59,828 bases of DNA from a virus (Duplodnaviria > Caudoviricetes), in IMG/VR virus record IMGVR_UViG_3300022602_000103, positions 1-59,828 of that record; one strand, 5' to 3'. The notes below the pieces were generated by a model. It was not told the DNA's origin. It worked only from the letters and a program-made list of their open reading frames with translations, and ran no database searches. This document shows positions 3,587 through 58,076 of this stretch, one piece after another. Within the stretch, counting starts at the first letter, position 1. Each line of letters starts with the position of its first letter. The position numbers were made by a program, and so were the translations under genes.

Positions 3587-3702
3587 ATGCTTCTCCTTTA
3601 TTAGAGTCATACATCATCAAACGATTTCCACTACCTCGTGGAAAGCTAATTAACATCTCAGGGTGCCACTTGCTTCGTAAAAATGCGCCCATCGACATTA
3701 TT

Positions 3703-3750
3703 AGTATACCACAACTTGACATATAAATCAAGCTGGTATATGACTTTTTT
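3703..3750 (-). promoter_or_regulatory. sigma70-type early promoter
   Basis: TTGATT-17-TATACT with extended TG; AAAAAAGTCATATA upstream. Confidence 0.75.
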
Positions 3751-3766
3751 AAATGACAGGCTGTTC

Positions 3767-4105
3767 TTATTTCTGTGGTAATGCTTTTTTATGGGTATAT
3801 CTGCGTCTGAATAGGACATCACCTCGTTCGCCTTTGGCATAGCGTTGCGTTAATGTATTAACTCCTATGCCAATCTCCTCTGCCCATTCTTTAAGCGTTT
3901 TAGTTTCTTCTCCGTTGCCTGTGTCGTATGTAACAAAATCTAGATAGCTGGTTTCTATCTCGCATGGTCTGAGTAGGTCTGCACCTCTATCGCCTTTCTT
4001 CCATCGGTAGCGCAACACATTGATGTCTATGCCTGTCTCTTTTGCCCACTCTTTCATGGTCATCTCTTTGTGGTTGCGTAGTCTATAAATCATCTTAGTG
4101 AACAT
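3767..4105 (-). CDS. putative DNA-binding protein with two HTH-like repeats
   Basis: Internal repeat TMKEWAKETGI...RWKKGDRG / TLKEWAEEIGI...RYAKGERG; RBS GAAAGG. Confidence 0.6.
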   Translation of the reverse strand: MFTKMIYRLRNHKEMTMKEWAKETGIDINVLRYRWKKGDRGADLLRPCEIETSYLDFVTYDTGNGEETKTLKEWAEEIGIGVNTLTQRYAKGERGDVLFRRRYTHKKALPQK

Positions 4106-4639: not shown

Positions 4640-4670
4640 AAAAAAGGGGAGGCTTTCGCCTCCCCCTAGT
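4640..4670 (-). terminator. rho-independent terminator
   Basis: GGGGGAGGC-GAAA-GCCTCCCCC then T-tract. Confidence 0.85.
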
Positions 4671-5424: not shown

Positions 5425-5460
5425 AAAAAAAGCCCCACCAGTCAATGACTGGCAGGGCTA
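5425..5460 (-). terminator. rho-independent terminator
   Basis: GCCCTGCCAGTC-ATT-GACTGGTGGGGC then T7. Confidence 0.8.
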
Positions 5461-38637: not shown

Positions 38638-41600
38638 TGGCACTTCCTGCTGGATTTGAACTTGAAAAGCCGCAATTACCAGAAGGATTTAAGCTTGAAG
38701 ATCAGCCTAAACCTGATGCTCTGGGTAGATTTGTAGCTGACCAAACCGCACCGCAAGAAGGTCCTGTTCAAGTAGGCGAGAATGCGCCTGACTTTACCCG
38801 TGGTTTAACTAATGAATTAGGTAGTCTCCAAAATGTATATGGCGGGGCTAAAGTATTAGCAGGTAAAGTTCTTGGCAGTCAAAGCTTAATGCAATCTGGT
38901 TTAGAAAGCATGAAAGCTGGAGAAGCTAAAACTGAGGTTAAACCCACTGATGATTTAACAGATGCTTTTAAAAAAGGTATTGGTTCTGTAGTTGGTGATT
39001 GGTTGCCATATCAAATAGGTTCTGGCGTTGGTAATATTCTTGAGACCCTTGGTTTTATGGGTATTGGAGCTGGTGTCGGTGCTTTAACTGGAGCAGGTGC
39101 TGGAGCATTACCTGGCGCTGTAGCAGGTGCAGTAGAAAAATCACTAGTTAAAAAAGGTGTTCAGTTAGCCGCAGAAAATGTTTTAAAAGAAACATTAGCT
39201 AAAGAATTAGCCGCTGGGACTGAAAAAGCCGCAGCAAAAGAAGTAGCAAAAACTGCTGCTGAGAAATATGTAGCTGAACATGCAATAGATATGTTAGCTC
39301 AAATTGATGCTAAAGCCGCTGCTCAATCTGCTGCAAGAAATATTGGTGGTAATTTAGGTATTGTTAGCCAAGCTGGTTTGCACGGCGCAGGTGAAGTTAC
39401 TGGGCAAGCTGTCCAACAAGCTGAAGCTGAAGGTCGTGCCCCTACTGATATTAATATGACCCGCGTAGTACCTGCTGCATTGGTACACGGCGTAGCAGAT
39501 TTCTTTGCAGAAAAGATTGGTTTACATGCTTTAGATGGTATGGCGTTAAATTCGTCTGGCAAAATGGTTCAAGATATTGCTAAAGCAATTGCACTGACTG
39601 GTACTAAAGAAGTTGTTCCAGAAACAATCCAAGAAATTGCTCAGCGCTATGGCGCTAATATGTCTCTTACCGATGCAGATGCGCTAAAAGATTATTTAAA
39701 CACAGTTGGTGCTTCATATGCTATGTCAGTTGTTCCAGCTGGCATTGGTGGTGTTCGTGCTAATTTGGCCCATAGAGCGGCTGAAATACCAGATCAAACA
39801 AATACTTTACAAGACTCTTTAGCAACTAAAGTAGCTACAGCCCCTGGTTTATTAGATGCAAATGGTAAACCGATTGTTGCTCCAGACCAAACTGAAACAA
39901 CTTTGTCAGCTGCTCCACCTCAAGAATCTATTTATGATGTGCCTAAAAAAGAAGCAGCTGACTATCTTGCAAAAATAGATTCTGGTGAAGTACAACCTAA
40001 TGCTTCTATTCTTAAAAAACACTTAGCTGCTACTGGCGCTGAAATGCCTGAGACTGGAAAAGGTTTTAGAGATAGAGCTTTAGAAGCACTAAAAACTCAT
40101 TTAGCACCGCAAGGAGAACAAAATGTCGGGACAACTAGCACTGTCAATGGAACAGATAGAAGTAGCGCTGAAGTACTTGGACAGCAAACAGATAGCACCG
40201 CCACCACAGGAACTACCACAGTTGGAGACCAAGGACTGGGAAGAGTTACACCACCTGCTAACGTGTCTCAAGCTGGAAAAGGAACAGAGCGTACTGCATT
40301 AAGCCAAACAGCTACAGATGAAGAGTTACGTGCAGCGCTTGAAAAAGACCAAGCACAAGCTGCCGCTACAGAAGCACAACGTCAAGCTGCACTGCAAGAA
40401 GTGGCTGGCAAAAATATTCCTCAGACTAAAACTGATGAACAAATACGTGATGAATATGAGCTAGCAAGACAGGCTCATACAGATACTCAAACTAAACTAA
40501 GCGCTAGCATTGATGAGTTAAATGCGCAGCGTGACGCATTAGTTAAAGAAGAAAATGCCCCTGGCAATGAAGATATTGACAATGGTGAAAAGATTGCCAA
40601 AATTGATGACCAGTTAACTAATCTAGAAAACCAACGCTTAGGTGCTATTCCTGCATGGGAAAATTTAGCAGCTGATGAAAAAGATACTTATTTAGGTAGC
40701 CTTAAAACTAATCCATCCGCTCAAGACTTTGACAATGCAGCTAAAGCACTAGCTTCTTATAAAGAACAGAAAAAAGGTTCTGGACTCAAACCAACTGAAC
40801 AACGTGTAGTTAATGGATACGAAGATAGTCGTTCAGCTTATCAGCGCTCTTTGGGCATGGATTTACCAGCATGGGGTCAATTATCACCAGCTGCGCAAGC
40901 TGCATACACTAGTAACGTAAAAAATAATACAGTTGCTGAGCAAGATGTTGGCTTTAATGCCGTAGCTGACCAGTTAGAAAAAGAAGGTAGAAGCATAAGA
41001 GGTGTATCTCGTGCTGGCATGGAGACCCTCAAACTTAAAGGTACTGAGCAAGAGGCGCAAGCTAAAGCGCAAGAGCGCACTGCCAAAGAAAGAGTTGCAG
41101 CTAGTGAAGCTGTTGGCAAAGGCAAGCCTGTAGCCCAAGATGTTAAGATTGCTCTTGAGAATAATGACATCAATGGTGCGCTTCAAGTTCTGATTGATAC
41201 TGGAGAAGGTCTAAAGATTGGCCCACAAGAAGGCGAGACTGGCGCAATTAAACAGTTAGCTCAACGCCAATCTATCCTAACTAAATTTGTAAATCGGTTC
41301 TTAGCTCGTTCCTTAAGTGGTGTTAAGTTTAACTCTACAGTTGTTACTGACCAGAACAATGAAGTTATCCAGCGCTTAGAGAAACAAGGCAAGCTGGCAG
41401 AGTATGACCCAAAAACAGATACATTCTATTTCACTAAGGATGGGTTTGATGAAGCTACCGTCTTGCATGAGATTGTTCACGCTGGCACTGTTAAGCTTAT
41501 TAATCAGTTTTTAACTAACCCAGCTAGCATGGCTCCGTACCAACGTGAAGCTATGGAGCATCTCCAAAAGATATTTAATTTTGCTAAGAATCGTCTGGGT

Positions 41601-44600
41601 AAAAAGTATCCTAACGCATTTGAAAACTTGTATGAGTTTGTTAGCTATGCATTAACTGACTCTAAATTCCAAAACGAGCTAGCTAATACCCAAGTTCGTC
41701 CTCTAGCTAAATATACTGTGGGCGCAGTTAAAACTTTATGGGATAACCTAACTCAAGCGTTTGCCAAACTCTATAACTTAGTTACTGCAGGTCCTGTTCG
41801 CACACAAGTACGCCCAGAGTTATTTGATGCCATATCCAAAGGCTTAGCGCCGATGAATAAAGAAGGGCTTTACGAAGCTACTGAAGAAGGTATCACCACT
41901 ACTGAAGTTGGTGAGATGGTGCCAGGTCGTGAAGCAGAAGTTAAAGAAAAGAAGCAAAAGTACAAACCAGGCAAAGTGTTTTTAGGGTTAGAGCCTGGGT
42001 TTGAAGGCAATCTATTGTTAGAAGTATCTGAAGCTTTTAGCGACATTTTAGATGCCCCGCAAAAAGGTATTGAGGTTGCGCCACTTGCAGTTAAAAAAGC
42101 TGAAACCAAAATGGATAACGGCAGTATTCTGCCTAGCAAAGACAAACCTGGAAGTATTACTAAAGAGCAACAGCCACGCAATATCAAGTACTTTAAAGAC
42201 CTATTGTTTACCCGCCAAGGCTGGAGACGAATTGCCACTGCTGTACAAAATGATCGCTATGAAGTTAAGCACTGGCAGGATATGCGCGATTTGGCTGGTC
42301 AGATTTACTATGAAGGCAAAGACAAAATCAATAACGTCTATGGTCAGTTAGCTCGTGCTCCTGCACAAGGCATGAATTTATACCGCTCTTTAATTGAAGG
42401 AACGTATGAGAAGCTAGATAAATCTATTTCTGACTTGTCTAAAGCAACTGGTTTTGATATTAAAGATACTTTAGAGCTACTGCATAACGTTGCGGTGGGT
42501 ATGCACGACTATGAACGTCGCCTTGTTAAGTATTTAAAGATTGTGCCGCTATCTGAAAAGAAAAACTTAAAGTACAGCGGTCAGATGATTAGCGCTGCTG
42601 ACTTCCGTAAGATGGCATTTGAAAAGCTAAACGACAATAAAACTACAGAAGCTGAAGCCCGTCAGTTGCGCCACGAGTTAGATGCTATTGTATTTACCAA
42701 AAACACTAAAGGTGAATTGCAGCCTAATACTAAATACGTAAGCGAACTTGGAGATAGCCCTCGTCAAGTAACAGATAAAGGTGGTGTTCGTAAAGGTGTT
42801 AACACTGAGCTTGATAACCCTATATATGACGTATCGTTGCTTACTTATAAAGAAGCCCAGCAACGTATGGATGAGTACCATAAATTTCAACATAAAGGAT
42901 TAGTTGATACTGCGTTGCAACAAGTACGAGAGTTGCATCATACAACTACTGAGCTTAATAAGATGGCTAACTATTGGTCTCAGCCAGTAAGTAACCACGT
43001 AGCATTTTATGGGTGGGATAACTATGTACCTTTGGCTGGCTATCATAGCGAAGAAGATGAGGGTCTAAACCTTAACGGCAAACATATGGGTCGTGAGTTG
43101 CAAGATATGGCTCACTCATTTGAAGGTCGTGTATCTGAATCTAATAACACCATTTTGCAATCAATGACTGACGCTGTGCGTTCTGCTATGCGAGCAGGGC
43201 GTAAAGACTTAACCCAGTCTATTAAAAATGCATCTAAGTATGACAAAAAACTTAATCCTAACGGTACAGGCATACTGCCAACAGCCAAAGTATGGGGACG
43301 GATTACTTTTGAAGAGCGTCGCAATAAAGAAGTTGTTGACTCATTGCCACGTGAAAATACTATCTTTCACTATAACGAGGATGGCAGTATTGACATCATT
43401 GAGATTGCAGATAACAAATTAAGGGAATCAATTCGTCGTAGTTTTAAAGATACTAATCCGTTAGTTACTATGGCTAATAATATTACTAGCCGACTCGGTA
43501 TGATGCATACCCGTTATAACTTTAACTTTGCACCTTTAAATTTTGTACGTGATGCATTGACTAATGCTTGGGCTATTGGCGCTGAACTAGGACCACTTCA
43601 ATCAGCTAAATATATTGCTGATATTGCTACTAAAGTTACAACTCAAAATAGTCTTGGTAAGGCTTTAAAAGTTGCGGCTCTTTATGAAAGCAAAGACTAT
43701 AACCAGATTAAAATATTAGCTGCTAAAGACCCAATCATCAAGGATATGTATGACTTTGTTGAGAAGGGTGGTATGGTGGACTATCTGCAAGGTTTATCAT
43801 TAAAGTCTAATTTCCAAAGATTACACAAAGAACTTGGTCGTAGTGGCGTAATAAAAAATGTCACCCAGCTAAATAGATTTGTTGATATCTGGACAGACAT
43901 GTTTGAATTGTCTAGCCGTTCTGCTGCATATGCTATCGCCAAACAAAATTTTAAATCACGCGGTTTAAGTGAAGAAGCAGCTACAACTAAAGCCGTTGAA
44001 TATGCTAAAAACTTAGCCAACTTTGAACAAGTAGGTCAGTATGGTAAAGAGCTTGGCGCTGTATTTATGTTCTTCCGCCCATCTGCAACAGGTGCTGTTC
44101 GTGCAATTGAAGCAGTTGCTCCAGCATTCCAAAATGTAAAAAGCGCTTTAAGAGATTTACCGCCAGGCACTAGCGAAGAAGCTATAGCTACATTTAAAAC
44201 TAACTTTGCAGAGCGCCAAAGAAATGCACGATACATGACTGCTGCTTTAATGGGTCTTGGCGCATTGGCATACACAATGTCTAGCATGATGGCTGGTGAT
44301 GATGACTTGGGGCGTAATAGAGTAGCTAATGATGATCCTGCACAGTGGACACGTTTTGCTAGATTCTTTACTCCATTTAGTGATAACCCAATTCAATTGC
44401 CTTGGGGCTTTGGTCTAGGTTCATTTGCTGCGGCTGGCGCACAATTAGCAGCTGTAGGTAGCGGACACCAATCATTTGGTGGTGCTATGGGTAATATTTT
44501 GACTCAGATTTCATTGGATTCATTTGTTCCTATTCCAGTATCCCGTATGCCTATCCAAGATAATCCAGCGCTATGGATGCTAGACTCATTAACACCTAGC

Positions 44601-45266
44601 ATGCTACGCCCTGCTATGGAGTTTGTAGTTAACAAAAATGGTTTAGGTCAAAGCATTTATAGCGATGCTAATCGCCGTATGGGTGATGCCTACTTAGGTG
44701 GTAATAATATCCCAGAAATTTACAAAACAATTGCACGTCAGTTGTTTGACTCTTCAGCAGGTGCTATTGACTTTTCACCTAATAGTATTTATTTCCTTGC
44801 CAATAGTTATATGGATGGCCCTGCACGTATTATAGAATCTACTACTAATGGTATGTATTTGGCATCGGGTCAAGCTGAAGAAAAAGATGCTATAGCAAGG
44901 ATGAAAGGTACACCATTTATTGGCTCGTTTATTGGTTCTGTACCTAATGTGGATAGTCGTGAGTTCTCATCTATAGAAAATCAAATTAAAGACAAACAAA
45001 AAATTTACACACAGGCGCAATTAAATCCAGAAGTAGAAGCTAAATACGTAGATAAAAACCCATTAGACCCTGAGATTATTGATTACTATAACCATGTTGT
45101 TAATGGTAGGTTAAAAGAATTACGTTCTCAAGCTAATCAAATTAGACTAATGCAAGGTGTATCTCCAAAAGATAGAGCTTCAATGCTAAAAGAAATTAAT
45201 AAAGAACAAAATCTTGTTAAGTATGATTTAGTACAACAATTTAAATCCTATGGTATGAAACCCTAG
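38637..45266 (+). CDS. large polyvalent ejection protein with zincin motif
   Basis: 2209 aa; VLHEIVHAG (HExxH) with downstream YEFVS; LPD38-like C-terminal region. Confidence 0.7.
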   Translation: MALPAGFELEKPQLPEGFKLEDQPKPDALGRFVADQTAPQEGPVQVGENAPDFTRGLTNELGSLQNVYGGAKVLAGKVLGSQSLMQSGLESMKAGEAKTEVKPTDDLTDAFKKGIGSVVGDWLPYQIGSGVGNILETLGFMGIGAGVGALTGAGAGALPGAVAGAVEKSLVKKGVQLAAENVLKETLAKELAAGTEKAAAKEVAKTAAEKYVAEHAIDMLAQIDAKAAAQSAARNIGGNLGIVSQAGLHGAGEVTGQAVQQAEAEGRAPTDINMTRVVPAALVHGVADFFAEKIGLHALDGMALNSSGKMVQDIAKAIALTGTKEVVPETIQEIAQRYGANMSLTDADALKDYLNTVGASYAMSVVPAGIGGVRANLAHRAAEIPDQTNTLQDSLATKVATAPGLLDANGKPIVAPDQTETTLSAAPPQESIYDVPKKEAADYLAKIDSGEVQPNASILKKHLAATGAEMPETGKGFRDRALEALKTHLAPQGEQNVGTTSTVNGTDRSSAEVLGQQTDSTATTGTTTVGDQGLGRVTPPANVSQAGKGTERTALSQTATDEELRAALEKDQAQAAATEAQRQAALQEVAGKNIPQTKTDEQIRDEYELARQAHTDTQTKLSASIDELNAQRDALVKEENAPGNEDIDNGEKIAKIDDQLTNLENQRLGAIPAWENLAADEKDTYLGSLKTNPSAQDFDNAAKALASYKEQKKGSGLKPTEQRVVNGYEDSRSAYQRSLGMDLPAWGQLSPAAQAAYTSNVKNNTVAEQDVGFNAVADQLEKEGRSIRGVSRAGMETLKLKGTEQEAQAKAQERTAKERVAASEAVGKGKPVAQDVKIALENNDINGALQVLIDTGEGLKIGPQEGETGAIKQLAQRQSILTKFVNRFLARSLSGVKFNSTVVTDQNNEVIQRLEKQGKLAEYDPKTDTFYFTKDGFDEATVLHEIVHAGTVKLINQFLTNPASMAPYQREAMEHLQKIFNFAKNRLGKKYPNAFENLYEFVSYALTDSKFQNELANTQVRPLAKYTVGAVKTLWDNLTQAFAKLYNLVTAGPVRTQVRPELFDAISKGLAPMNKEGLYEATEEGITTTEVGEMVPGREAEVKEKKQKYKPGKVFLGLEPGFEGNLLLEVSEAFSDILDAPQKGIEVAPLAVKKAETKMDNGSILPSKDKPGSITKEQQPRNIKYFKDLLFTRQGWRRIATAVQNDRYEVKHWQDMRDLAGQIYYEGKDKINNVYGQLARAPAQGMNLYRSLIEGTYEKLDKSISDLSKATGFDIKDTLELLHNVAVGMHDYERRLVKYLKIVPLSEKKNLKYSGQMISAADFRKMAFEKLNDNKTTEAEARQLRHELDAIVFTKNTKGELQPNTKYVSELGDSPRQVTDKGGVRKGVNTELDNPIYDVSLLTYKEAQQRMDEYHKFQHKGLVDTALQQVRELHHTTTELNKMANYWSQPVSNHVAFYGWDNYVPLAGYHSEEDEGLNLNGKHMGRELQDMAHSFEGRVSESNNTILQSMTDAVRSAMRAGRKDLTQSIKNASKYDKKLNPNGTGILPTAKVWGRITFEERRNKEVVDSLPRENTIFHYNEDGSIDIIEIADNKLRESIRRSFKDTNPLVTMANNITSRLGMMHTRYNFNFAPLNFVRDALTNAWAIGAELGPLQSAKYIADIATKVTTQNSLGKALKVAALYESKDYNQIKILAAKDPIIKDMYDFVEKGGMVDYLQGLSLKSNFQRLHKELGRSGVIKNVTQLNRFVDIWTDMFELSSRSAAYAIAKQNFKSRGLSEEAATTKAVEYAKNLANFEQVGQYGKELGAVFMFFRPSATGAVRAIEAVAPAFQNVKSALRDLPPGTSEEAIATFKTNFAERQRNARYMTAALMGLGALAYTMSSMMAGDDDLGRNRVANDDPAQWTRFARFFTPFSDNPIQLPWGFGLGSFAAAGAQLAAVGSGHQSFGGAMGNILTQISLDSFVPIPVSRMPIQDNPALWMLDSLTPSMLRPAMEFVVNKNGLGQSIYSDANRRMGDAYLGGNNIPEIYKTIARQLFDSSAGAIDFSPNSIYFLANSYMDGPARIIESTTNGMYLASGQAEEKDAIARMKGTPFIGSFIGSVPNVDSREFSSIENQIKDKQKIYTQAQLNPEVEAKYVDKNPLDPEIIDYYNHVVNGRLKELRSQANQIRLMQGVSPKDRASMLKEINKEQNLVKYDLVQQFKSYGMKP

Positions 45267-49605: not shown

Positions 49606-50019
49606 CTAATCTTGAGTGGGTTTATATACTACTGCGGTAAACTCTCTCATTACATTCACGCCAGGCGGCAAGCCATCACCTGCATGCTCAGCCATGAATT
49701 CTTTAAAGTTTGTTTGGTGTATGCGCCCTTCAAACAACTCAGGCATTTCCTTCTCCATAACAAACTTACGAAAGCTATCTCCATCAGATATGGTGTAGCG
49801 TTCATTTAACTTTTTAACCACTCGACCTTCTTTGGTTTTAATACTGGTTGCGTTTGTTTCGTTGCACACTGCAAGCATTTGCTGACCTAAAACTACCAAA
49901 TCATTCTCAAATACTTTGTCTTGTACTTTCCACTCTGCAGCAATTCTTTCACGCTCTGCTCTTATTGTCAAGTAAGTTTTTACTAATTCATCTAAATTAA
50001 CTTCAGTCATTGTTGTCAT
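49606..50019 (-). CDS. conserved replication-module protein
   Basis: LVKTYLTIR...SIKT..G...LPPGVN. Confidence 0.65.
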   Translation of the reverse strand: MTTMTEVNLDELVKTYLTIRAERERIAAEWKVQDKVFENDLVVLGQQMLAVCNETNATSIKTKEGRVVKKLNERYTISDGDSFRKFVMEKEMPELFEGRIHQTNFKEFMAEHAGDGLPPGVNVMREFTAVVYKPTQD

Positions 50020-51580
50020 CTTCTATTCCTAACTCTTCTCTATACAGGTCAACCAGCTTCTCGTGGCTATCAACTTTAGACTGAAGCATCGCATACATCT
50101 TTCGTTCAATTTCTGAACCTTGCAAGTGTACGACAGTCATCTTGTTAACCTGACCAACACGGTCAATACGGGCTACGCACTGCAGATATGTTTCCACACT
50201 CATTACTGGAGACCAAAATACTACTGTGTCTGCGGCAGTTAGAGTCACACCATGCGATGCAGCTTGTGGTTGAATAATTAACACTCGTGGAAATTCTGAA
50301 TTTTGAAACCGACTAATAATTTCCGATCGCTCTTTAGCGGCTACGCTTCCTCTAATAATTTCATTAGTGACTCCTTCTCCTTGTAAATGTTTAGCAACTA
50401 AATCAATAGTGTGACCGTAGGGAACAAAGATAATAACTTTATGTTCCGTCTCATCAAGCACTTCCATTAGGGCATTTAATCGTGGAGACACATCAAACTC
50501 CACAACTTCACGGGTATCTGTATAGACAGCCCCTCCCGAAATTTGTAACAATTTTGTTAACTTTGCCGCAGCGTTAACAGCGCTAATTTTTTCTCCTGCC
50601 GCTTCAATAAGCATCTGACTCTTGATGACTTGGTAATACTTATTAACTTGAACGCTAAGGGGTACTATGCGAGTCTGGTACATCACAGGCGGTAGGTCTA
50701 AGCATTGAGCCTTCTCAAAACGAATGGCTGGTTGTAGAGCGTTGTAAACATCTTGCCGTGCATTAGGCTTTGGTACATACTTAAAGCGGGTTACTTGGTG
50801 CATTACCTTATCTCGCCACGCAGTAAAATACTTAGGCACATTCCCAGGAGATACAAGCCTTGCAAGCCCAAACGCATCAAGCGGGGACTGCGAAGCGGGA
50901 GTGCCAGTAAGCATCCAAAGTTTTGTTGAGGGCTTCATTATTTTTGCTAGTGTTTTCCATCTTTTGGTCGTAACTGTTTTATAAGCGTTAGCTTCATCAA
51001 TTACTATTAGGTCAAACCCTAGTTTACTTATTTCTTCTTTAACAATGTTCACACCATCATAGTTAATGATGACAAACTCATAGACTCCATTAAGAACTTT
51101 CTTGCGTTTATCTGCATCGCCATAAGCTACAGCTACGCTTCTGTGCATGGCAGTTTTAAAGATATCTGCTTGCCATGCTGAATACATAATAGATAGTGGG
51201 CAGATGATTAAAACGCGCTTAATCAAGCCTTGCGTCATTAGATAGTCGGCAGCCCATATAACCGATGAAGTCTTGCCTGTACCCGCTTCATTAAAGCAGA
51301 ATGCGCGTTGTTGTAGTGAAAGGAATGAGGCAGTAGTTTCTTGGTGTTTGAATGGCGTGTACATTCCAGGCCAAGTGTAATCTCTTTGCATCGGTGAAGG
51401 AACTTTATCCCCATACACTTTGACCATGTGTTGCATCTCTTCGATGCCCCAATACACTAAAACTTCTGCGTGGTTGCCGTTGTCTTCTACGACTTCGCTT
51501 TTTTCTAGGTAGTCCGTAATCAGGTTGACTTCGTCTGATTTGATCCTAAATTTAACGGCTTGGTTATCAACTATTTCCAC
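50003..51580 (-). CDS. SNF2-family helicase
   Basis: GTGKT, VIDEA, LTGTP, HGVTLT, Q...RIDR.GQ. Confidence 0.9.
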   Translation of the reverse strand: MEIVDNQAVKFRIKSDEVNLITDYLEKSEVVEDNGNHAEVLVYWGIEEMQHMVKVYGDKVPSPMQRDYTWPGMYTPFKHQETTASFLSLQQRAFCFNEAGTGKTSSVIWAADYLMTQGLIKRVLIICPLSIMYSAWQADIFKTAMHRSVAVAYGDADKRKKVLNGVYEFVIINYDGVNIVKEEISKLGFDLIVIDEANAYKTVTTKRWKTLAKIMKPSTKLWMLTGTPASQSPLDAFGLARLVSPGNVPKYFTAWRDKVMHQVTRFKYVPKPNARQDVYNALQPAIRFEKAQCLDLPPVMYQTRIVPLSVQVNKYYQVIKSQMLIEAAGEKISAVNAAAKLTKLLQISGGAVYTDTREVVEFDVSPRLNALMEVLDETEHKVIIFVPYGHTIDLVAKHLQGEGVTNEIIRGSVAAKERSEIISRFQNSEFPRVLIIQPQAASHGVTLTAADTVVFWSPVMSVETYLQCVARIDRVGQVNKMTVVHLQGSEIERKMYAMLQSKVDSHEKLVDLYREELGIEDDNND

Positions 51581-51607
51581 AACTATCCTCTAACTAAAAT
51601 TTAACTG

Positions 51608-51742
51608 TGACCCCTTACGGGGGTTAGTCGGTCAAGCCTGTCGTGCAAAGGAGAAGTGCAAATGAACTTCATAACACCGCCTGACTGACATGGTTATAAG
51701 GGGAAGTCAATACCCTACCGCCCACTCATGCCTTACAGCGGT
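51608..51742 (-). ncRNA. candidate structured RNA with pseudoknot and anti-RBS loop
   Basis: Four hairpins plus a 6-bp pseudoknot; loop contains CAUUUGCACUUCUCCUUU. Confidence 0.55.
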
Positions 51743-51798
51743 AACTTTACAATCCTACTTCTTTAACTTTACAATCCTACTTCTTTAACTTTACAATC
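51742..51798. repeat. 22-bp tandem repeat x2.6
   Basis: TAACTTTACAATCCTACTTCTT twice, then TAACTTTACAATC. Confidence 0.9.
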
Positions 51799-52124
51799 TT
51801 GCTCAATTTTTTCTCTCCGCCCTTTTCTTTCTTGGACTTCTCAGAAACTAAATTGCCTTTTGAATCTCTTTTAAACGAGCGGTTACCGTGCGCGCTCTCA
51901 ATAAACACACCAGCTTTATTTGAACCACCTTTGTCCAAAGCTTTAACGTGAGCCACATCTTTGCCTTCACGAATATCTGCTTTTTTATTTTTATCTTTGT
52001 CAGGATACATCTTATCAATCGCACGACGGGCGCGCTGTCTTTCCATTCGACGTTCATGTTCACCACGGGCTTTCTCTTGTTGGTATTCTTTAGCATAGGG
52101 TCTAGGTTTATTAACGTAAGGCAT
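51777..52124 (-). CDS. HNH-like small basic protein
   Basis: GKDVAHVKALDKGGSN...NRSF. Confidence 0.65.
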   Translation of the reverse strand: MPYVNKPRPYAKEYQQEKARGEHERRMERQRARRAIDKMYPDKDKNKKADIREGKDVAHVKALDKGGSNKAGVFIESAHGNRSFKRDSKGNLVSEKSKKEKGGEKKLSKIVKLKK

Positions 52125-52777
52125 TATCTCTCCTTGTGAAACTCACAGGTTCTAACAGGACACCAGCCACATAGCGGTGTAGGATTTGGATTCCATACAT
52201 CATTTTCGTAGGATATGTTTAATCTTTCAAGGTCTGTACTAAATTGATTCCACAACTTAGGAATCTGATCCCGTGTGTATTCTTCGTCTATGAAACTCTC
52301 GTGCATCACAAACAGTAGACCAGCTTTGATACGCTTGACTTCGGGAAAATGCTCAAAGGTCATCAGCGCCATCAGCTTTAACTGTTTAGGGTCAGGGTAA
52401 CGATTAGACCCAGTCTTGTAGTCCACAATGAATGCTTGCTCACCATCCACAATCAGCAAATCCACGATGCCACGTACCCAGTAGCCCTTACCAAAAGCAC
52501 ATGCTTTTTTATTGGCATCTAGTCCCATTCTATGTTCGGGATATTTAATCCCAGGGATTTCCCTAAGTGAATCTAATACAGGCTGAAACCGCTTGTAGTT
52601 TTCAGCTAGGGGTTTACCCTCACCCACATAGTCTTCACAGGCTTTATGGACTTCCGTGCCATAGCGCATCTGTTCTGTTGGGTATTTAACAAAGTGCTTT
52701 AATACTTTAACTTCCTGATACTGCTTAGGACAGTTAACGTAGTCTTTGAGAGAGGAGAATGACCAAGTAAAGTTCAT
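52124..52777 (-). CDS. PD-(D/E)XK exonuclease (RecB/Cas4-like)
   Basis: WSFSSL...CP, G.EVH, RGIVDL, VDYKTG, QLKL, C..CP...C. Confidence 0.85.
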   Translation of the reverse strand: MNFTWSFSSLKDYVNCPKQYQEVKVLKHFVKYPTEQMRYGTEVHKACEDYVGEGKPLAENYKRFQPVLDSLREIPGIKYPEHRMGLDANKKACAFGKGYWVRGIVDLLIVDGEQAFIVDYKTGSNRYPDPKQLKLMALMTFEHFPEVKRIKAGLLFVMHESFIDEEYTRDQIPKLWNQFSTDLERLNISYENDVWNPNPTPLCGWCPVRTCEFHKER

Positions 52778-53266: not shown

Positions 53267-54034
53267 CTAGACTCCTTTAAGGATGTTTGGGTTAATTGCC
53301 CCAATGTTTTCAAGGTTCCGATCAGGGTAATCGTTTTTTAATAATACATACTGCATACTAGCAATCCTAGCACTTCTTTTACAATCAGATTGTACTTGTA
53401 TCCACGGACATTCTTTAGTGCTAGTCTTATCAAGCATCTGTATTTTTGCTTTGGTATATTCATCCCACATAGTTTGACTAGCAACATCTATCGGGCTGAG
53501 CTTGCCTTGCTTGAGCGGGTGCGTTTCACGTTCTTGGAAGCGACGGGCTTGCTCTTTTTTGCTGACGGAGTACCAGAACTTGATAATTTTAATTCCTCCT
53601 TCGACCCAGATTTTTTCAAGGACGGGCGTTTCTTTGAAGAACTGCTTGGTTTGGTTAACTGTGCAGAAACCCATGACAGGCTCGACTCCTGCTCGGTTGT
53701 ACCATGACCTATCCCAGAACGTGATTTCTCCTGCTTTAGGAAACTCTTTGATGTAGCGTTGCCAGTACCACTCTTTCGCTTCTTGCTCTGTGGGCTTGGA
53801 GAGGGCAACGACTCTTGCGGTTCTTGGGTTGAGGTGTTCCATGAATCGCTTAATTGACCCACCTTTACCTGCGGCATCGCGCCCTTCAAAAATAATGATA
53901 TGTTGTGTATTAGTTTCTTTAACATGGTTTTGCCATTTCAAAAGTTCTACTTGTAATAAATACTTTTTTGCCTCGTACTCCTTGAGACTAATCAAGTTCC
54001 GTGGTGATTCTTCTGACTGATCTATTGTACTCAC
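53267..54034 (-). CDS. ppk2: polyphosphate kinase 2
   Basis: Walker A FEGRDAAGKGG, DRSWYNR Walker B, EPVMGFC, lid EQ.RRF..R...PLK..KLSP.D; GTG start 54034 overlaps the polymerase stop. Confidence 0.92.
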   Translation of the reverse strand: MSTIDQSEESPRNLISLKEYEAKKYLLQVELLKWQNHVKETNTQHIIIFEGRDAAGKGGSIKRFMEHLNPRTARVVALSKPTEQEAKEWYWQRYIKEFPKAGEITFWDRSWYNRAGVEPVMGFCTVNQTKQFFKETPVLEKIWVEGGIKIIKFWYSVSKKEQARRFQERETHPLKQGKLSPIDVASQTMWDEYTKAKIQMLDKTSTKECPWIQVQSDCKRSARIASMQYVLLKNDYPDRNLENIGAINPNILKGV

Positions 54035-55917
54035 GCTTTCCACTCCTCCATCTCACCATAATTCTTACCAAAGTGAGCTTCACAAGCTACTGGTAAACCC
54101 TTAGCCCATTCTGGTGGTGTTGACATGACCTCGACGATCCATGCACAAGCCTCATCTACTTCATCCTCGGGAACTACGCACACCGCCGCATCATGCACAG
54201 TTAGCACGGGTCGATAGCGCTCCGTTAATTTAATCATCTGCTGACCTACAATAATCCTAGCTAACGCTTGAACTACGTTCTCCACAACTGAACCGCCCCA
54301 TAGAGACACGGGGCCTTTGCGTGACTTGTATTGGTATCCGCCTTTAGAGTCATCAGTGATCTGTAAGTCAGGGTAGCGGATGTATAGTCCGTTTGGCAGT
54401 TCAATCCCTTCTTTAGTAACCCGCACACACTTGTGTTTGCCATAGGCAAACGGCTTTTGTTTAGGTTGCCAATCAGCTAACCGCTTAAGAGCGTCGTCGC
54501 CTTCTCGCCATAGCTTAACAATCATATCGTTGGTGTCTCTGTATAGATTAACTATTTCCTTACACTTATCCTCTGTGAGGTCTGCGCCTGGCGGACTAGT
54601 CTTTAGTGTGTGCTGTAACTTTAACGCACCAGTCCCATAGCCCAATCCAAGGATGCAGGTTTTACCCACAAACCTTTCAACGGGGTCTTTTTTGGTAATG
54701 GTTCTTTCATAGATTTTCGACGCAAAGACGGAATAAACATCATTCCCTTTGGCGAAGTCTTTGACCAAATCTTCCTGACCCGAAAGCCATGCGAGTACTC
54801 TTGCTTCAATCTGAGACGAGTCGCAGTTGATAACCATATATCCCTCGGGGGCAACCACCGCATTCTTAAGAGCCTTTTTCTTCTTGTCTCGACTCGGTAG
54901 GTTTTGGAAATTAACCTTATCCGACCCTGCCCAACGACCCGTATGCGCCCCGTAATATTTAAGCGGGATAGGTAATCTACCTTTGTTGCGTGAACCGACA
55001 TCTATGAACCTTTCTATTCTTGACTCTTCAATGGTTGATTTAGTCCCCAGTCGCACGGCAGCGAGTTGTTGGATGATAGGGTCTTCGTGTTCTGTTAGCG
55101 CTATGAACCCTTCGTCATTTTTTGCCAGCGCAAAGGTCTGCTTGCCAGTTGTCTTGCTCTCCTTCATCGGTGGCTCGACTCCAAACTCCTTTAGCACGGC
55201 AGCGAATTGTTTATTACTAGCTAACTTCTTGCGTACTTGCTCTTCGTTCTCACATTGCAAGGTAGCTTTGAGTGTCCCTAATAACTGTAATTTCTCATGC
55301 TTAAGTTCCTCTAGTCGGTCATTGAGTAGCGCATCGTCAACCTCTAGGATTGGATTGATAAACATTTTTAAAGTCATATCTATCAAAAGCAATTCATCAG
55401 GTGGAAACGCACTCGACAATACTTGGAAGAGCTTAAAAGTTAACTCCACATCGTTGATGCAGTATGAACCGTAGGCTGTGAGTTCGGCTGAAGTGAAACC
55501 AGTTATTTGCTTACCTTCTGCCAACACAACCTCGTGACCCTTGACACCTAGCTTATAACGCTCGGCAAGATAGGATAAAGAACCCCCGACATCTACCCCA
55601 TTCGTAGCCCGACCCATGCACAATGTATCAAGATAAAAAGATGGCTTGATACCAAACTTCCACGCAAGAATAGAGCCGTCAAATAAAGTATTGTGGCAAA
55701 GCAAAGCAGAATCTTTCCACGGGAGTGTGGAAAGGTATTTTTGGATGTCGAGGTGTGAACCAGAAAACCATTCAGTCACACCTTCACCTACCTTGACACC
55801 AACACCGATTACTTCAAAGCGCTTGTCTCTGATGTATTCCTCAGTCGTCTGATGCTTAAAACCAAGCTTGATCTTGGAGTCGTAGTAGGTTTCAAAATCC
55901 AAAACTATTAAGTTCAT
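54031..55917 (-). CDS. polA: DNA polymerase family A with 3'-5' exonuclease
   Basis: ExoI LDFET, HN..FD, YC.ND; HTGRW, NFQNLP, motif A DSSQIEAR, motif B R..GK...LGLGYG, motif C VHD. Confidence 0.92.
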   Translation of the reverse strand: MNLIVLDFETYYDSKIKLGFKHQTTEEYIRDKRFEVIGVGVKVGEGVTEWFSGSHLDIQKYLSTLPWKDSALLCHNTLFDGSILAWKFGIKPSFYLDTLCMGRATNGVDVGGSLSYLAERYKLGVKGHEVVLAEGKQITGFTSAELTAYGSYCINDVELTFKLFQVLSSAFPPDELLLIDMTLKMFINPILEVDDALLNDRLEELKHEKLQLLGTLKATLQCENEEQVRKKLASNKQFAAVLKEFGVEPPMKESKTTGKQTFALAKNDEGFIALTEHEDPIIQQLAAVRLGTKSTIEESRIERFIDVGSRNKGRLPIPLKYYGAHTGRWAGSDKVNFQNLPSRDKKKKALKNAVVAPEGYMVINCDSSQIEARVLAWLSGQEDLVKDFAKGNDVYSVFASKIYERTITKKDPVERFVGKTCILGLGYGTGALKLQHTLKTSPPGADLTEDKCKEIVNLYRDTNDMIVKLWREGDDALKRLADWQPKQKPFAYGKHKCVRVTKEGIELPNGLYIRYPDLQITDDSKGGYQYKSRKGPVSLWGGSVVENVVQALARIIVGQQMIKLTERYRPVLTVHDAAVCVVPEDEVDEACAWIVEVMSTPPEWAKGLPVACEAHFGKNYGEMEEWKA

Positions 55918-56396
55918 TTGTACGATTCCCCACGAACCACTAAACTAATTACTCTTTGGCTTACACCAAATTCTTTTGCTAACGGCACTTGATATTCTCC
56001 TTTGGTATAGCGTTTGCGTATTTGAATTACTTGTTTAGCTGATAGTTTCGCATTGACATGATTAGCCCCTTTAGGTTGCGCTTTACGCTTTTTGGTATAA
56101 GCGTCTTTCATATTGTCTGAAAAATTACCTATAAAGAAATGGCTAGGGTTACAGCATTTGCGGTTGTCACACTTATGCAAAACATACCCTTTTTCCGTTG
56201 TATGTTTTGGTGCACTAGGATCAGATATGAGTCCACTTAACCACGCAGAAATGCGGTGTGAGACATATATTTTCCCATCCCACGCTACATTACCATACCC
56301 GACACTATTGCAAGCTCCTTGCCATTCCCAGCAATCTGACTTTTTGCCAATACTTACCCTAGCCCAAAAAGACTCAGAGGTCTGTTTTCTACTCAC
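55914..56396 (-). CDS. HNH endonuclease with C-terminal HTH (homing type)
   Basis: CWEW.G...GYG, SHR, VLHKCDNRKCCNPSH...N..D, LAKEFGVSQ. Confidence 0.85.
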   Translation of the reverse strand: MSRKQTSESFWARVSIGKKSDCWEWQGACNSVGYGNVAWDGKIYVSHRISAWLSGLISDPSAPKHTTEKGYVLHKCDNRKCCNPSHFFIGNFSDNMKDAYTKKRKAQPKGANHVNAKLSAKQVIQIRKRYTKGEYQVPLAKEFGVSQRVISLVVRGESYK

Positions 56397-56433: not shown

Positions 56434-56970
56434 TCATAGGTAATTAAATAACTTTCCGAATATGGTTTTGTGTTTCTTTTCTTTTTTTGCTAAATCTTTT
56501 TGTGCTTTCACTAGGTCATATTGCGCTTCGAGTTGCTCATTATAGAAACGTAGTTGTTGATCCACAGTAGAGATAGCGGTAGTACCCCATGTCCCGCCGT
56601 TAGAGATAGCATTAGTGTTAAGTGATACTGTTGACTGCCCCGCACTCGTAGTCATACCAAGTGGAACTGACCCTAAGTGGTATGGATTGGTGCTGGTGAT
56701 TCTGACTGGCTTTCCCATTTCACTCACTTCGTCCTCGCCAGTAAGTGCTTTCATGATGCGCTCGGTAAAGTTCTCACGTATCGCATCGTTAAAGGCTGTC
56801 CTGACCGCTTGCTTTTCTTCGTCGGTAAAGTACTCTGTATTAAGAACCTCACTTAAGAAAGGACTCCATATATTTTTCTTAGGATCATGATGATACATCG
56901 TAGGGTCTACTGAAAAGTCCTCGGGTCTATCTTTCATCCGTTGTAAAAGTATTTCAACTCCTGAGTTCAT
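56434..56970 (-). CDS. hypothetical protein, paralog family GV.I.L.RM...PE.F (copy 3)
   Basis: MNSGVEILLQRMKDRPEDF. Confidence 0.7.
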   Translation of the reverse strand: MNSGVEILLQRMKDRPEDFSVDPTMYHHDPKKNIWSPFLSEVLNTEYFTDEEKQAVRTAFNDAIRENFTERIMKALTGEDEVSEMGKPVRITSTNPYHLGSVPLGMTTSAGQSTVSLNTNAISNGGTWGTTAISTVDQQLRFYNEQLEAQYDLVKAQKDLAKKEKKHKTIFGKLFNYL

Positions 56971-57650: not shown

Positions 57651-58076
57651 TTACTTCTTACTTAGTTTGCCAACTTCACGATTGAGATACCATTGGGCTT
57701 TCTTCAAATCTTCTAACTTGTTCCCCTTGTGGTCTGCACGAGTAATATACTTCACCACATTACCGAGGTTATAGTTAAGAGACTTTGCTTCGATGAAATC
57801 AATCGTCTCGATCCCGCCTGTCTTGTAGTGGGGTGGATGGTTGACGTTATCGGTCTTCACAACAGTCTTAGGTTTTCTTCCACGCTTGGGTGGATACTTA
57901 ATTAGAACTGCTGGTGATGCGCTCATGGTGAGGGCTTGATCTTTCTTTGATTTATGAATTATCTGATACACACTATTGGGTGTAACACCAATCGCCTTTG
58001 CTATTTCGATTGCTTTTGCATTGGGGTTGTTCTTAACATAAGCCAATACCTTTGCAGTTTTAGTTAACTTCTTCAT
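57651..58076 (-). CDS. HTH + DUF3310 (SaV-like) protein
   Basis: EIAKAIGVT HTH; DNVNHPPHY..GGIETIDFI...GNVVKY..R...K...EDLKKAQWYL. Confidence 0.8.
   Translation of the reverse strand: MKKLTKTAKVLAYVKNNPNAKAIEIAKAIGVTPNSVYQIIHKSKKDQALTMSASPAVLIKYPPKRGRKPKTVVKTDNVNHPPHYKTGGIETIDFIEAKSLNYNLGNVVKYITRADHKGNKLEDLKKAQWYLNREVGKLSKK

What the first reader, a model, noticed from the sequence alone, without database searches (positions are those of the whole stretch)
51608..51742. Pseudoknotted RNA candidate whose loop is antisense to the phage's own translation-start signature
Seen: the intergenic gap upstream of the SNF2 helicase folds on the minus (transcribed) strand. P1 is ACCGCU/GGCGGU (51742-37/51722-17); its loop GGCAUG pairs with downstream CAUGUC (51692-87) as a pseudoknot. 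P2 is AGGG/CCCU. The long P3 stem is GUCAGGC..UGUUAUG / CACGACA..GCUUGAC, and P4 is ACCCC/GGGGU. The P3 loop reads AAGUUCAUUUGCACUUCUCCUUUG, the reverse complement of CAAAGGAGAAGTGCAAATGAACTT. Seven minus-strand genes carry the extended RBS AGGAGAAG(C/T)A (starts 757, 1697, 3586, 6109, 6521, 57577, 58076). The loop also pairs 13 of 14 nt with the polA start (GTACAAATGAACTT, 55910-55923), 16 of 19 nt with the start at 56970 and 8 nt with the exonuclease start at 52777. Inference: a multi-target trans-acting sRNA, or 16S-tail mimic, that turns off early and replication gene translation. That would be an RNA-based temporal switch.
Basis: partly seen in the sequence, partly recalled or inferred. 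Interest (0 to 1): 0.82.

Follow-up and report, generated by a model that had tools for sequence, protein, structure and literature searches.

The report
Conserved pseudoknotted phage RNA with anti-RBS tip
The gap upstream of this lake phage's helicase gene encodes a real, evolutionarily conserved, pseudoknotted RNA belonging to a family that matches no Rfam family, and its exposed tip is complementary to ribosome-binding sites, but what it does is still unproven.

Summary
Window 51608-51744 (minus strand) is one member of a phage RNA family. It was found upstream of the SNF2 helicase in 75 of 80 related viral contigs, and at other intergenic sites in more distant phages. Covariation supports P1, the loop-to-downstream pseudoknot, P3 and P4: 96.4% of cells pair, against 31-40% when partners are slid, and 23 of 27 pairs show compensatory changes. 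All 6 pseudoknot pairs covary in the wider set. G.U counts place the fold on the gene-sense strand. No Rfam 15 family matches. The element is single copy per genome and rare in cellular genomes. The P3 tip carries an exposed anti-Shine-Dalgarno tract in most members. In the window's clade the tract pairs 9-12 nt with 8-11 early-gene RBSs. Across 16 genomes, tip-RBS co-variation is mixed. The adjacent helicase RBS is a poor partner, which argues against cis sequestration. The neighbouring gene varies (helicase, polA, nuclease, primase, tRNA arrays). The conserved core therefore probably has a role beyond antisense pairing. The best guess is an operon-embedded RBS-masking RNA (confidence 0.35). 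Antitermination or processing, a riboswitch and a ribozyme remain open.

The parts
51608..51744 (-). Whole RNA element (137 nt), from P1 to P4
   Evidence: Covariance model R1 scores 133.1 bits, E 3.4e-37. It is the only match in the window. Its boundaries come from alignment A2.
51717..51742 (-). P1 hairpin: 6-bp stem (51742-51737 with 51722-51717) and a 14-nt loop GUAAGGCAUGAGUG
   Evidence: All 6 pairs show compensatory changes. The helix is 92.5% paired. Loop letters are invariant or nearly so.
51687..51732 (-). H-type pseudoknot: loop GGCAUG (51732-51727) pairs with CAUGUC (51692-51687). The invariant AAC at 51695-51693 lies just 5' of the pseudoknot's 3' strand.
   Evidence: 98.4% paired with 4 of 6 pairs compensatory. 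97.6% paired with 6 of 6 compensatory in the wider set. Examples: GGUACG/CGUACC, GGCGUG/CACGUC, AACAUG/CAUGUU.
51699..51716 (-). P2, a variable hairpin (AGGG...CCCU) enclosed by the pseudoknot
   Evidence: Its length and sequence vary among relatives, with G-run/C-run arms. It is absent in L013 and L022. Pair counts were not made for it.
51631..51685 (-). P3: P3a (51685-51679 with 51637-51631), P3b (51677-51675 with 51645-51643), and apical stem GAAGU/ACUUC (51670-51666 with 51657-51653)
   Evidence: P3a has 7 of 7 pairs compensatory and P3b 3 of 3. The apical stem comes from constrained folding.
51646..51656 (-). Anti-SD / anti-RBS tract CUUCUCCUUUG at the P3 tip
   Evidence: Its antisense AAGGAGAAG lies at 51648-51656 on the plus strand. 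Mean predicted unpaired probability of the best hexamer is 0.66 in the window and 0.77 over 83 members. It is enriched over controls.
51625..51630 (-). J3/4 junction CGACUA (family consensus CCGAYU, counting the last C of P3a)
   Evidence: The letters C, G and U are invariant in the 64-sequence alignments.
51610..51624 (-). P4: 5-bp stem ACCCC/GGGGU with pentaloop CGUAA
   Evidence: 100% paired. The outer pair switches A-U/G-C (34 vs 28), and the inner pairs are almost invariant. No U tract follows, and the terminator scan does not call it.
51578..51590 (-). Helicase SD (GAGGA, 51590-51586) and GTG start (51580-51578)
   Evidence: ORF list. Pfam assigns SNF2-rel_dom and Helicase_C. Duplex with the P3 tip is only -9.3 kcal/mol, rank 41 of 73.
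51742..51798 (.). Perfect 22-nt tandem repeat (2.6 copies) abutting P1 and covering the stop codon of the upstream 115-aa ORF. It is flanking context, not part of the conserved RNA.
   Evidence: Tandem Repeats Finder score 114, 100% matches. The upstream sequences of the closest relatives printed do not show it.

Best explanation
The window encodes one member of a phage-specific family of 110-180-nt RNAs. The RNA is made as part of the leftward early/replication transcript. It folds into a compact core: the P1 loop is locked by a pseudoknot to the base of P3, and the invariant P4 hairpin follows.

The top of P3 presents a single-stranded pyrimidine tract (UCUCCUU and variants) that is complementary to purine-rich ribosome-binding sites. 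I think it most likely acts as an RBS-masking regulatory RNA. Once the replication operon is transcribed, the tip would pair with AAGGAGA(AG)-type RBSs of the phage's own early-strand genes and lower their translation. The conserved core would then serve as a stable scaffold or as a recognition platform for a partner, such as a protein or an RNase.

Shown: the fold, its strand, its conservation, single copy per genome, the exposed tract, and its complementarity to early-gene RBSs in the window's clade.

Inferred: that the RNA accumulates, that pairing occurs in vivo, and that it represses translation.
For: Fold and strand:
- Covariation supports the fold.
- 175 G.U cells against 12 A.C cells place it on the gene-sense strand.

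Copy number and range:
- One copy in the window and in each of 5 further complete or near-complete genomes (CheckV 95-100%).
- 85 sources gave 85 matches.
It gave 15 hits in 596 Gb of cellular genomes, and the 5 full-length ones are all on short MAG contigs.

The tract:
- A perfect anti-SD hexamer is present in 50 of 83 tips and a 5-of-6 match or better in 76 of 83. Random same-strand windows give 1% and 14%.
- The tract is predicted mostly unpaired, mean 0.77.

RBS complementarity:
- Window: 8 minus-strand early genes have 8-11 nt of perfect complementarity.
- Relatives G003 and G004 carry the same tip and have 10 and 9 gene-sense AAGGAGAAG sites. Three genomes with other tips have 0-2 per strand.
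- G001's different tip matches one RBS at 15 of 16 positions, by my hand comparison of the RBS string with the tip. Its duplex energy is -28.2 kcal/mol.
- The best partners lie on the element's strand in 6 to 8 of the top 8 (5 of the 6 genomes).
- AAGGAGA RBSs: 42 of 216 same-strand genes against 6 of 211 opposite-strand genes.
- The adjacent helicase RBS is a weak partner, ranks 69/72, 70/78, 49/67, 38/75 and 41/73. If the tract pairs with RBSs at all, the targets are elsewhere.

Gene context:
- The element behaves like a gene of its own. It lies at different intergenic sites and next to tRNA arrays.
Against: - Tip-RBS specificity is not general. In the 16 x 16 test the genome's own RNA ranks 1-2 in 6 genomes, 3-5 in 3 (the window ranks 5) and 10-16 in 7. 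G003, G004 and the window are close kin, and five of the genomes are only 48-69% complete.
- Distant members (G005-G009) have CU-rich but not clearly RBS-matched tips.
- Most members have no sigma-70 promoter of their own, and P4 is not a terminator. Any free RNA would therefore need processing.
- An antisense function does not explain the invariant P1-loop, UAAC, CCGACU and P4 letters across phages of 42-70% G+C.
- A shorter module (hairpin + CGACU + P4) without any CU tract exists on its own in other phages.
- My gene calls were crude and required an SD. That biases RBS statistics, although equally on both strands.
Confidence: 0.35

Rival explanations
1. Operon-level cis element. The folded nascent RNA acts on its own transcript. 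It could work as a processive antiterminator (put-, EAR- or nut-like), as a processing site, or as a stabiliser. It would secure expression of whatever lies downstream, whether replication genes or tRNA arrays.
For: - The element is always in sense orientation, single copy, and independent of the identity of the next gene: helicase, polA, nuclease, primase, unrelated small ORFs, or 6-tRNA arrays.
- In L127 it starts about 7 nt after a TTGACA-16-TATGAT promoter that follows a terminator. L059 has TTGACT-16-TATAGT just upstream. In L108 it follows a region of repeated palindromes.
- A core conserved across phages of very different G+C fits a conserved host partner such as RNA polymerase.
- P4 has the format of a boxB hairpin (5-bp stem plus pentaloop). 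The boxB format is recalled, not from a call.
- From search listings only: HK022 put RNA acts alone on RNA polymerase (abstract of PMC9378689), and boxA is bound by NusB:NusE (abstract of PMC2800207).
Against: - In the helicase family the element sits mid-operon, 2-35 nt after a stop codon, with no promoter.
- Sigma-70 promoters are not enriched upstream: 1 of 44 sequences scores 10 or more, against 1% of background.
- No strong terminators are predicted downstream in the window's replication block.
- The tract matches anti-SD hexamers rather than the recalled boxA consensus.
- No similarity to Rfam families, EAR (epsC) included.
Confidence: 0.2
2. The conserved core is a ligand-sensing aptamer (riboswitch) or a self-cleaving ribozyme of a class not yet described. 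The P3 tip would be peripheral or would form an expression platform.
For: - The features are typical of such RNAs. Junction and loop nucleotides are invariant (GUWAGG..GAGUG, AAC, CCGAYU, CGUAA). There is a pseudoknot, and P2 and apical P3 are inserts of variable length.
- The element lies in intercistronic or 5'-leader positions, 19-35 nt before the next start codon.
- It lies close to tRNA arrays.
Against: - No match to any riboswitch or ribozyme model in Rfam 15.
- The downstream genes share no metabolic theme beyond DNA replication, and they include tRNAs.
- The SD of the next gene is not a good partner of the anti-SD tract.
- The MI scan of A3 consensus columns, which leaves out the variable apical P3, showed no covarying pairs outside the modelled helices, so nothing there hints at an alternative (switching) structure.
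Confidence: 0.15
3. Cis-acting translational operator. The anti-SD tract sequesters the SD of the adjacent helicase gene, possibly with a bound protein, and so sets helicase translation.
For: - The element ends 19-35 nt before the start codon in most members.
- UCCUU can pair with AAGGA or GAGGA of the helicase RBS (sequence).
Against: - The helicase RBS is among the weakest duplex partners of the tip: ranks 69/72, 70/78, 49/67, 38/75 and 41/73, with energies of -5.5 to -10.2 kcal/mol against a median of -6 to -10 for random windows.
- The downstream gene is not conserved, and in L086, L108, L097 and L114 tRNA genes follow.
- L138 has the helicase without the element, and carries the element elsewhere.
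Confidence: 0.12
4. A DNA-level signal, such as a replication origin or a single-strand initiation site, or the SD of a plus-strand mini-ORF (MNFITPPD), rather than an RNA.
For: - One copy per genome, mostly inside the replication module.
- In the window the antisense of the tip reads as an RBS plus ATG.
Against: - Strand-specific G.U pairs: 175 against 12 A.C. Pairing is 96.4% on the sense strand and 86.6% on the other.
- Pseudoknot covariation.
- The element is always in sense orientation.
- 56 of 83 members lack an antisense SD plus start, only 12 of 83 have ATG, and the peptides are unrelated.
Confidence: 0.03

Closest known systems
P1/P7 c4 antisense RNA (immI operon c4-icd-ant)
   Same: A phage RNA encoded in the same operon as protein genes. 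It represses expression by antisense pairing within the phage's own transcripts (passages read in PMC8198154). Pairing at an RBS and processing out of the operon transcript are recalled from memory, not from a call.
   Different: No match to any Rfam model, C4 included. The present RNA has a conserved pseudoknotted core and an invariant 3' hairpin. Its best predicted targets are many early-gene RBSs upstream in the transcription order, not one downstream gene. Its function is untested.
C-rich-loop sRNAs of Staphylococcus (RNAIII, RsaE type) that pair with SD sequences (recalled)
   Same: An exposed pyrimidine-rich loop is complementary to SD sequences, which allows several targets.
   Different: Those are stand-alone genes with a promoter and terminator, and they have no conserved pseudoknot. 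Here the RNA is embedded in an operon and phage-encoded. The comparison comes from memory only.
Processive antitermination RNAs: HK022 put, lambda nut (boxA+boxB), Bacillus EAR
   Same: A cis-encoded structured RNA lies early in, or inside, long operons and is independent of the downstream gene. P4 resembles boxB in format. Only the abstracts of PMC9378689 and PMC2800207 were seen, in the search listing.
   Different: No sequence or model similarity. The boxA consensus is not matched (recalled). There is no evidence for terminators that need to be overridden.
T4 RegA / RegB control of early mRNAs (review PMC3014915, search listing only)
   Same: The proposed outcome is the same: shut-off of early-gene translation through their ribosome-binding sites.
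   Different: RegA and RegB are proteins. Here the proposed effector is an RNA.
Candidate structured RNAs catalogued from IMG/VR (PMC10690425)
   Same: The same data source and the same kind of object. The family may be among the more than 10,000 unnamed candidates.
   Different: The main text has 0 occurrences of 'helicase' and of 'polymerase'. Only two passages were seen. The supplementary tables that could list the motif are closed.

Membership tests
Any Rfam 15 family (riboswitches, ribozymes, C4, epsC/EAR, phage RNAs) | Score at or near the family's gathering threshold with its covariance model | tested here: not met
   The E-value scan of 51000-52300 gave 3 weak, unrelated hits (E 1.4-9.3), none in 51608-51744. 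The gathering scan of 13 divergent member loci (138,773 bases) gave only tRNAs and one int-alpA elsewhere.
Trans-acting antisense sRNA | Own promoter and intrinsic terminator, or evidence of a processed stable species | tested here: inconclusive
   Promoters lie immediately upstream only in L127 and L059. There is no general enrichment. P4 lacks a U tract. Processing cannot be tested here.
Trans-acting antisense sRNA | Accessible seed with extended complementarity to targets that co-varies with them | tested here: inconclusive
   The seed is exposed. Matches of 9-12 nt reach 8-11 RBSs in the window's clade. The own-RNA rank is 1-2 in 6 of 16 genomes, 3-5 in 3 and 10-16 in 7.
Translational riboswitch / cis operator | The anti-SD pairs with the SD of the regulated downstream gene | tested here: not met
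   The helicase RBS ranks 69/72, 70/78, 49/67, 38/75 and 41/73 among duplex partners of the tip.
Translational riboswitch / cis operator | Consistent association with one gene family or pathway | tested here: not met
   Downstream genes are helicase, polA, a nuclease, a primase operon, unrelated small ORFs and tRNA arrays.
Riboswitch / ribozyme in general | Conserved core nucleotides in junctions, a pseudoknot, and variable peripheral stems | tested here: met
   This is a resemblance in architecture only. Ligand binding and cleavage are not testable with these tools.
Intrinsic terminator | G+C-rich hairpin followed directly by a U tract | tested here: not met
   P4 is followed by UCACAGUU... 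No minus-strand terminator is called in 51000-52300.
nut site (boxA + boxB) | boxA consensus upstream of a 5-bp hairpin with a GNRA-like pentaloop, plus an N-type protein | tested here: inconclusive
   The hairpin format is met: 5-bp stem with CGUAA loop, and GCAA in L038. The CU tract is anti-SD-like rather than boxA-like, a comparison with a consensus recalled from memory. An N-like protein was not searched for.
CRISPR-repeat mimic (RNA anti-CRISPR) | Sequence and structure of a host CRISPR repeat, often in arrays | not tested
   Only the 12-nt P4 hairpin string recurs in papers on Thermus CRISPR-Cas systems (search listing). The element is single copy. The host and its repeats are unknown.

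The most novel reading that the evidence does not exclude
A widespread phage RNA family works as an RNA-only temporal switch. Its pseudoknotted scaffold presents a 16S-tail-like, anti-RBS tract. That tract titrates the specialised RBSs of early genes once the replication operon is transcribed. Alternatively, the invariant core is a new ribozyme or riboswitch class that couples this masking to a signal.
Probability: 0.3. Interest if true: 0.85.

Novelty: new variant of a known kind. Interest (0 to 1): 0.7.

Why it matters
Structured RNAs with covariation this clear, including a verified pseudoknot, are rare finds. This one is abundant in uncultured lake and other environmental phages, occurs once per genome, and matches no Rfam family.

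If the tip really masks early-gene ribosome-binding sites, it would be an RNA counterpart of T4 RegA/RegB. It would also be a compact, portable translational off-switch. If the core binds a ligand, RNA polymerase or a nuclease, or if it cleaves itself, it would define a new functional RNA class.

In either case the 137-nt sequence, its alignment and the covariance model make the question directly testable in vitro.

Tried and rejected
- Single-sequence thermodynamics. The minus strand gives z = +0.41 and the plus strand z = -1.43. This is uninformative either way.
- Near-identity and distant blastn searches against cultured phages found no member. The window region gave no megablast match. The element gave 2 trivial hits. 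Two divergent members gave only short hits.
- The covariance model found nothing in about 41-kb regions of the four nearest cultured relatives by helicase similarity: Rollin, RHph_TM3_14A, Effie and Xp15.
- Expression. No RNA holder is listed among 22 sequencing runs; all holders are DNA contigs.
- Sigma-70 promoter upstream. There is none in the helicase family and no enrichment in 44 other loci.
- Host assignment from cellular genomes. Full-length hits lie only on short MAG contigs of discordant taxa. This line was rejected.
- Further tertiary pairs. The mutual-information scan found none beyond the model.
- The 115-aa upstream protein. A relaxed Pfam scan gave no credible family. An HNH idea was dropped.
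- Small ORFs downstream of the element in other phages are not homologous to one another.
- Extension of P3 by GUC/GAC as an alternative to the pseudoknot. It was rejected because CGAC stays constant when the pseudoknot strand changes.
- Literature. The string search found only papers on Thermus CRISPR-Cas systems. Two keyword searches found no description of this motif. The supplements of PMC10690425 could list it and were closed.

Full report
**Setting.** The window is a 59,828-base IMG/VR viral record with an estimated completeness of 91%. It contains a plus-strand structural block (7201-45266). A minus-strand early/replication block runs off both ends of the record. The finding lies in the 196-nt gap between a 115-aa ORF (51777-52124) and an SNF2-family helicase (50003-51580, GTG start). 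PD-(D/E)XK exonuclease, PPK2 and family-A DNA polymerase genes lie upstream, and a primase-helicase lies downstream. Megablast found no close cultured relative. The nearest helicases in GenBank phages are 38-40% identical.

**Is the structure real?**
- The window alone gives no sign of it. The minus-strand MFE of the gap is no better than shuffles: z = +0.41, and 128 of 200 shuffles fold as well.
- Homologues decide the matter. A protein-guided scan with the helicase found 424 relatives and kept 80 loci at 73-97% identity.
- 75 of the 80 loci carry the same element immediately upstream of the helicase. That is 64 of 66 distinct upstream sequences, counting the window. L030-L033 and L063 have a short unrelated hairpin instead.
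- RNAalifold recovered P1, P3 and P4 on its own, with 15 of 17 pairs compensatory.
- I then counted my full model, pseudoknot included, on 63 distinct sequences. 96.4% of cells pair, against 31.4-40.2% for slid partners. 23 of 27 pairs change on both sides, and no shuffle out of 500 reaches the observed values. The pseudoknot is 98.4% paired, with 4 of 6 pairs compensatory.
- On a model-built alignment of 83 distinct members that includes distant ones, the values are 94.4% against 31.0-38.9%. All 6 pseudoknot pairs show compensatory changes. The pseudoknot was not part of the covariance model, so these counts are not fitted to it.
- A structure-blind mutual-information scan put 14 known pairs in its top 14.
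- 175 G.U cells against 12 A.C cells place the fold on the gene-sense (window minus) strand.

**What family is it?** No Rfam 15 model matches the window region, even at E = 10, nor 13 divergent member loci at gathering thresholds.
It hit only 15 stretches in 596 Gb of cellular genomes. By my own estimate that is about the number expected by chance.
- The five full-length cellular hits sit on short MAG contigs (1-11.7 kb) of discordant taxa.
- Of the 120 viral loci, 69 have a helicase relative beside the match and 47 have neither the helicase nor the 115-aa ORF.
- Among the 48 loci without an adjacent helicase that went into the call, the model found full-length elements in 20. It found partial P3+P4 matches in 9 further loci, and P4-only matches in the rest.
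- Each of five further complete or near-complete genomes (CheckV 95-100%), like the window, holds exactly one copy.

**Context.** The distant members mostly belong to phages with a homologous replication module, but the element sits at different intergenic sites:
- before polA (L119, L121);
- before a nuclease gene followed by polA (L127);
- after the nuclease gene and before a 77-aa ORF, in a phage whose helicase has no element (L138);
- after polA (L087);
- before a 110-aa ORF and the primase (L093).

The small downstream ORFs are unrelated to one another. In L086 and L108 a six-tRNA array follows within 64-105 nt. In L097 and L114 a tRNA-Met lies about 450 nt downstream.

The element always lies in the sense orientation. 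In the helicase family the upstream stop codon lies 2-35 nt before P1, with no sigma-70 promoter. L127 and L059 do have a good promoter that ends just before P1. Promoters are not generally enriched upstream.

**The tip of P3.**
- The apical part of P3 varies in length from 6 to 64 nt.
- In 50 of 83 distinct members it holds a perfect anti-SD-type hexamer (CUCCUU, CCUCCU, UCUCCU or UCCUUU). In 76 of 83 it holds a 5-of-6 match or better.
- Controls for the perfect hexamer are 1% of random same-strand windows, 6% of reversed tips and 0% of reverse complements.
- Constrained folding predicts the tract to be mostly unpaired (mean 0.77). It lies either in an 11-12-nt terminal loop or in a 3' internal loop beside an inserted hairpin.
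- The plus-strand reading fails. 56 of 83 members have no antisense SD plus start, only 12 have ATG, and MNFITPPD is unique to the window.

**Does the tip track the phage's RBSs?**
- In the window, AGGAGAAGYA occurs 8 times, all on the minus strand in the early region, against 0.23 expected. 8 predicted RBSs show 8-11 nt of perfect complementarity to the tip.
- G003 and G004 have the same tip and carry 10 and 9 gene-sense AAGGAGAAG sites. G001, G002 and G005 have other tips and carry 0-2 per strand.
- G001's tip UCUCUCUCUCCUUUCG faces an RBS reading CGAAAGGGAGAGAGA, with a duplex energy of -28.2 kcal/mol. G002's tip faces two AAAGGAGCAA-type RBSs.
- AAGGAGA RBSs are seven-fold more frequent on the element's strand: 42 of 216 genes, against 6 of 211.
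- The pre-stated cross test used the 16-nt tip and the mean of the three best duplexes, over 16 RNAs and 16 genomes. The genome's own RNA ranks 1-2 in G001-G004, G010 and G012. It ranks 3-5 in the window, G006 and G014, and 10-16 in the other seven.
- Five of those genomes are only 48-69% complete and may lack their early regions. Three of the positive ones are close kin.
- I read this as suggestive, not established.
They depend on window-specific loop letters.

**Cis or trans?** The helicase RBS is a poor partner of the tip. It ranks 69/72, 70/78, 49/67, 38/75 and 41/73, with energies close to those of random windows. Together with the changing downstream gene and the tRNA arrays, this argues against simple SD sequestration of the next gene.

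**What the antisense model does not explain.**
- The P1-loop letters, UAAC, CCGAYU and the P4 hairpin are nearly invariant in phages from 42 to 70% G+C.
- A shorter module (hairpin + CGACU + P4) without a CU tract occurs alone in other phages. One example is the cultured Synechococcus phage S-N03, where it lies about 45 nt downstream of a TTGACA-17-TATGCT promoter.
- The core therefore probably binds something conserved, or has an activity of its own.
- For these reasons I keep three alternatives open: an operon-level cis function (antitermination, processing or stability), a riboswitch, and a ribozyme.

**Verdict.** The object is a previously undescribed phage RNA family, as far as Rfam 15 and three literature searches show. 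It may appear unnamed in the closed supplements of PMC10690425.

My best mechanistic guess is an operon-embedded RBS-masking RNA that acts on early-gene RBSs (confidence 0.35). The closest known analogue is the P1 c4 RNA, which represses genes of its own operon (passages read in PMC8198154).

Noticed in passing
window 51742-51798: A perfect 22-nt tandem repeat (2.6 copies) spans the stop codon of the 115-aa ORF and abuts P1. On the plus strand it creates two TTTACA-18-TACAAT promoter-like sites. It seems specific to the window.
   Followed up: partly
L085, L115, L152, L150, L107, L130, L104 and others; L268:2447-2523 (Synechococcus phage S-N03): A shorter module occurs alone in unrelated, often high-G+C phages, commonly 1-13 nt after a stop codon. 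It consists of a short hairpin, CGACU, and the CCCC-CGUAA-GGGG hairpin. L085 and L115 share the loop AGUUACAG on covarying stems. In S-N03 the module follows a TTGACA-17-TATGCT promoter.
   Followed up: partly
L108:8300-8470: At least four copies of a palindrome built on GATACCGGTATC (operator- or iteron-like) lie just upstream of the element, and a six-tRNA array follows it.
   Followed up: no
L097:3352-3372 and 3659-3783 (minus strand): One contig carries a full element and, about 290 nt downstream, a second P4-type module. A tRNA-Met gene follows.
   Followed up: no
window 53267-54043 (minus strand): A PPK2 (polyphosphate kinase 2) gene lies inside the phage replication module, Pfam E 1.4e-84.
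   Followed up: no
window 5431-5459 and 4644-4667 (minus strand): Two strong intrinsic-terminator-like hairpins (13 and 10 bp, each with a T run) lie inside the early region that carries the AAGGAGAAG RBS genes.
   Followed up: no
L030-L033, L063 (upstream of the helicase): Five of 80 helicase relatives lack the element. They have a short hairpin in its place, although the 115-aa ORF is kept. The element is therefore dispensable or replaceable.
   Followed up: partly
window 38637-45266 (plus strand): A 2209-aa protein carries an LPD38 (large polyvalent protein) domain at the end of the structural block.
   Followed up: no
window 57651-58076 (minus strand): An early-region protein with a DUF3310 domain and weak HTH or sigma-70 region 3/4 matches is one of the genes with the AAGGAGAAGU RBS.
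   Followed up: no
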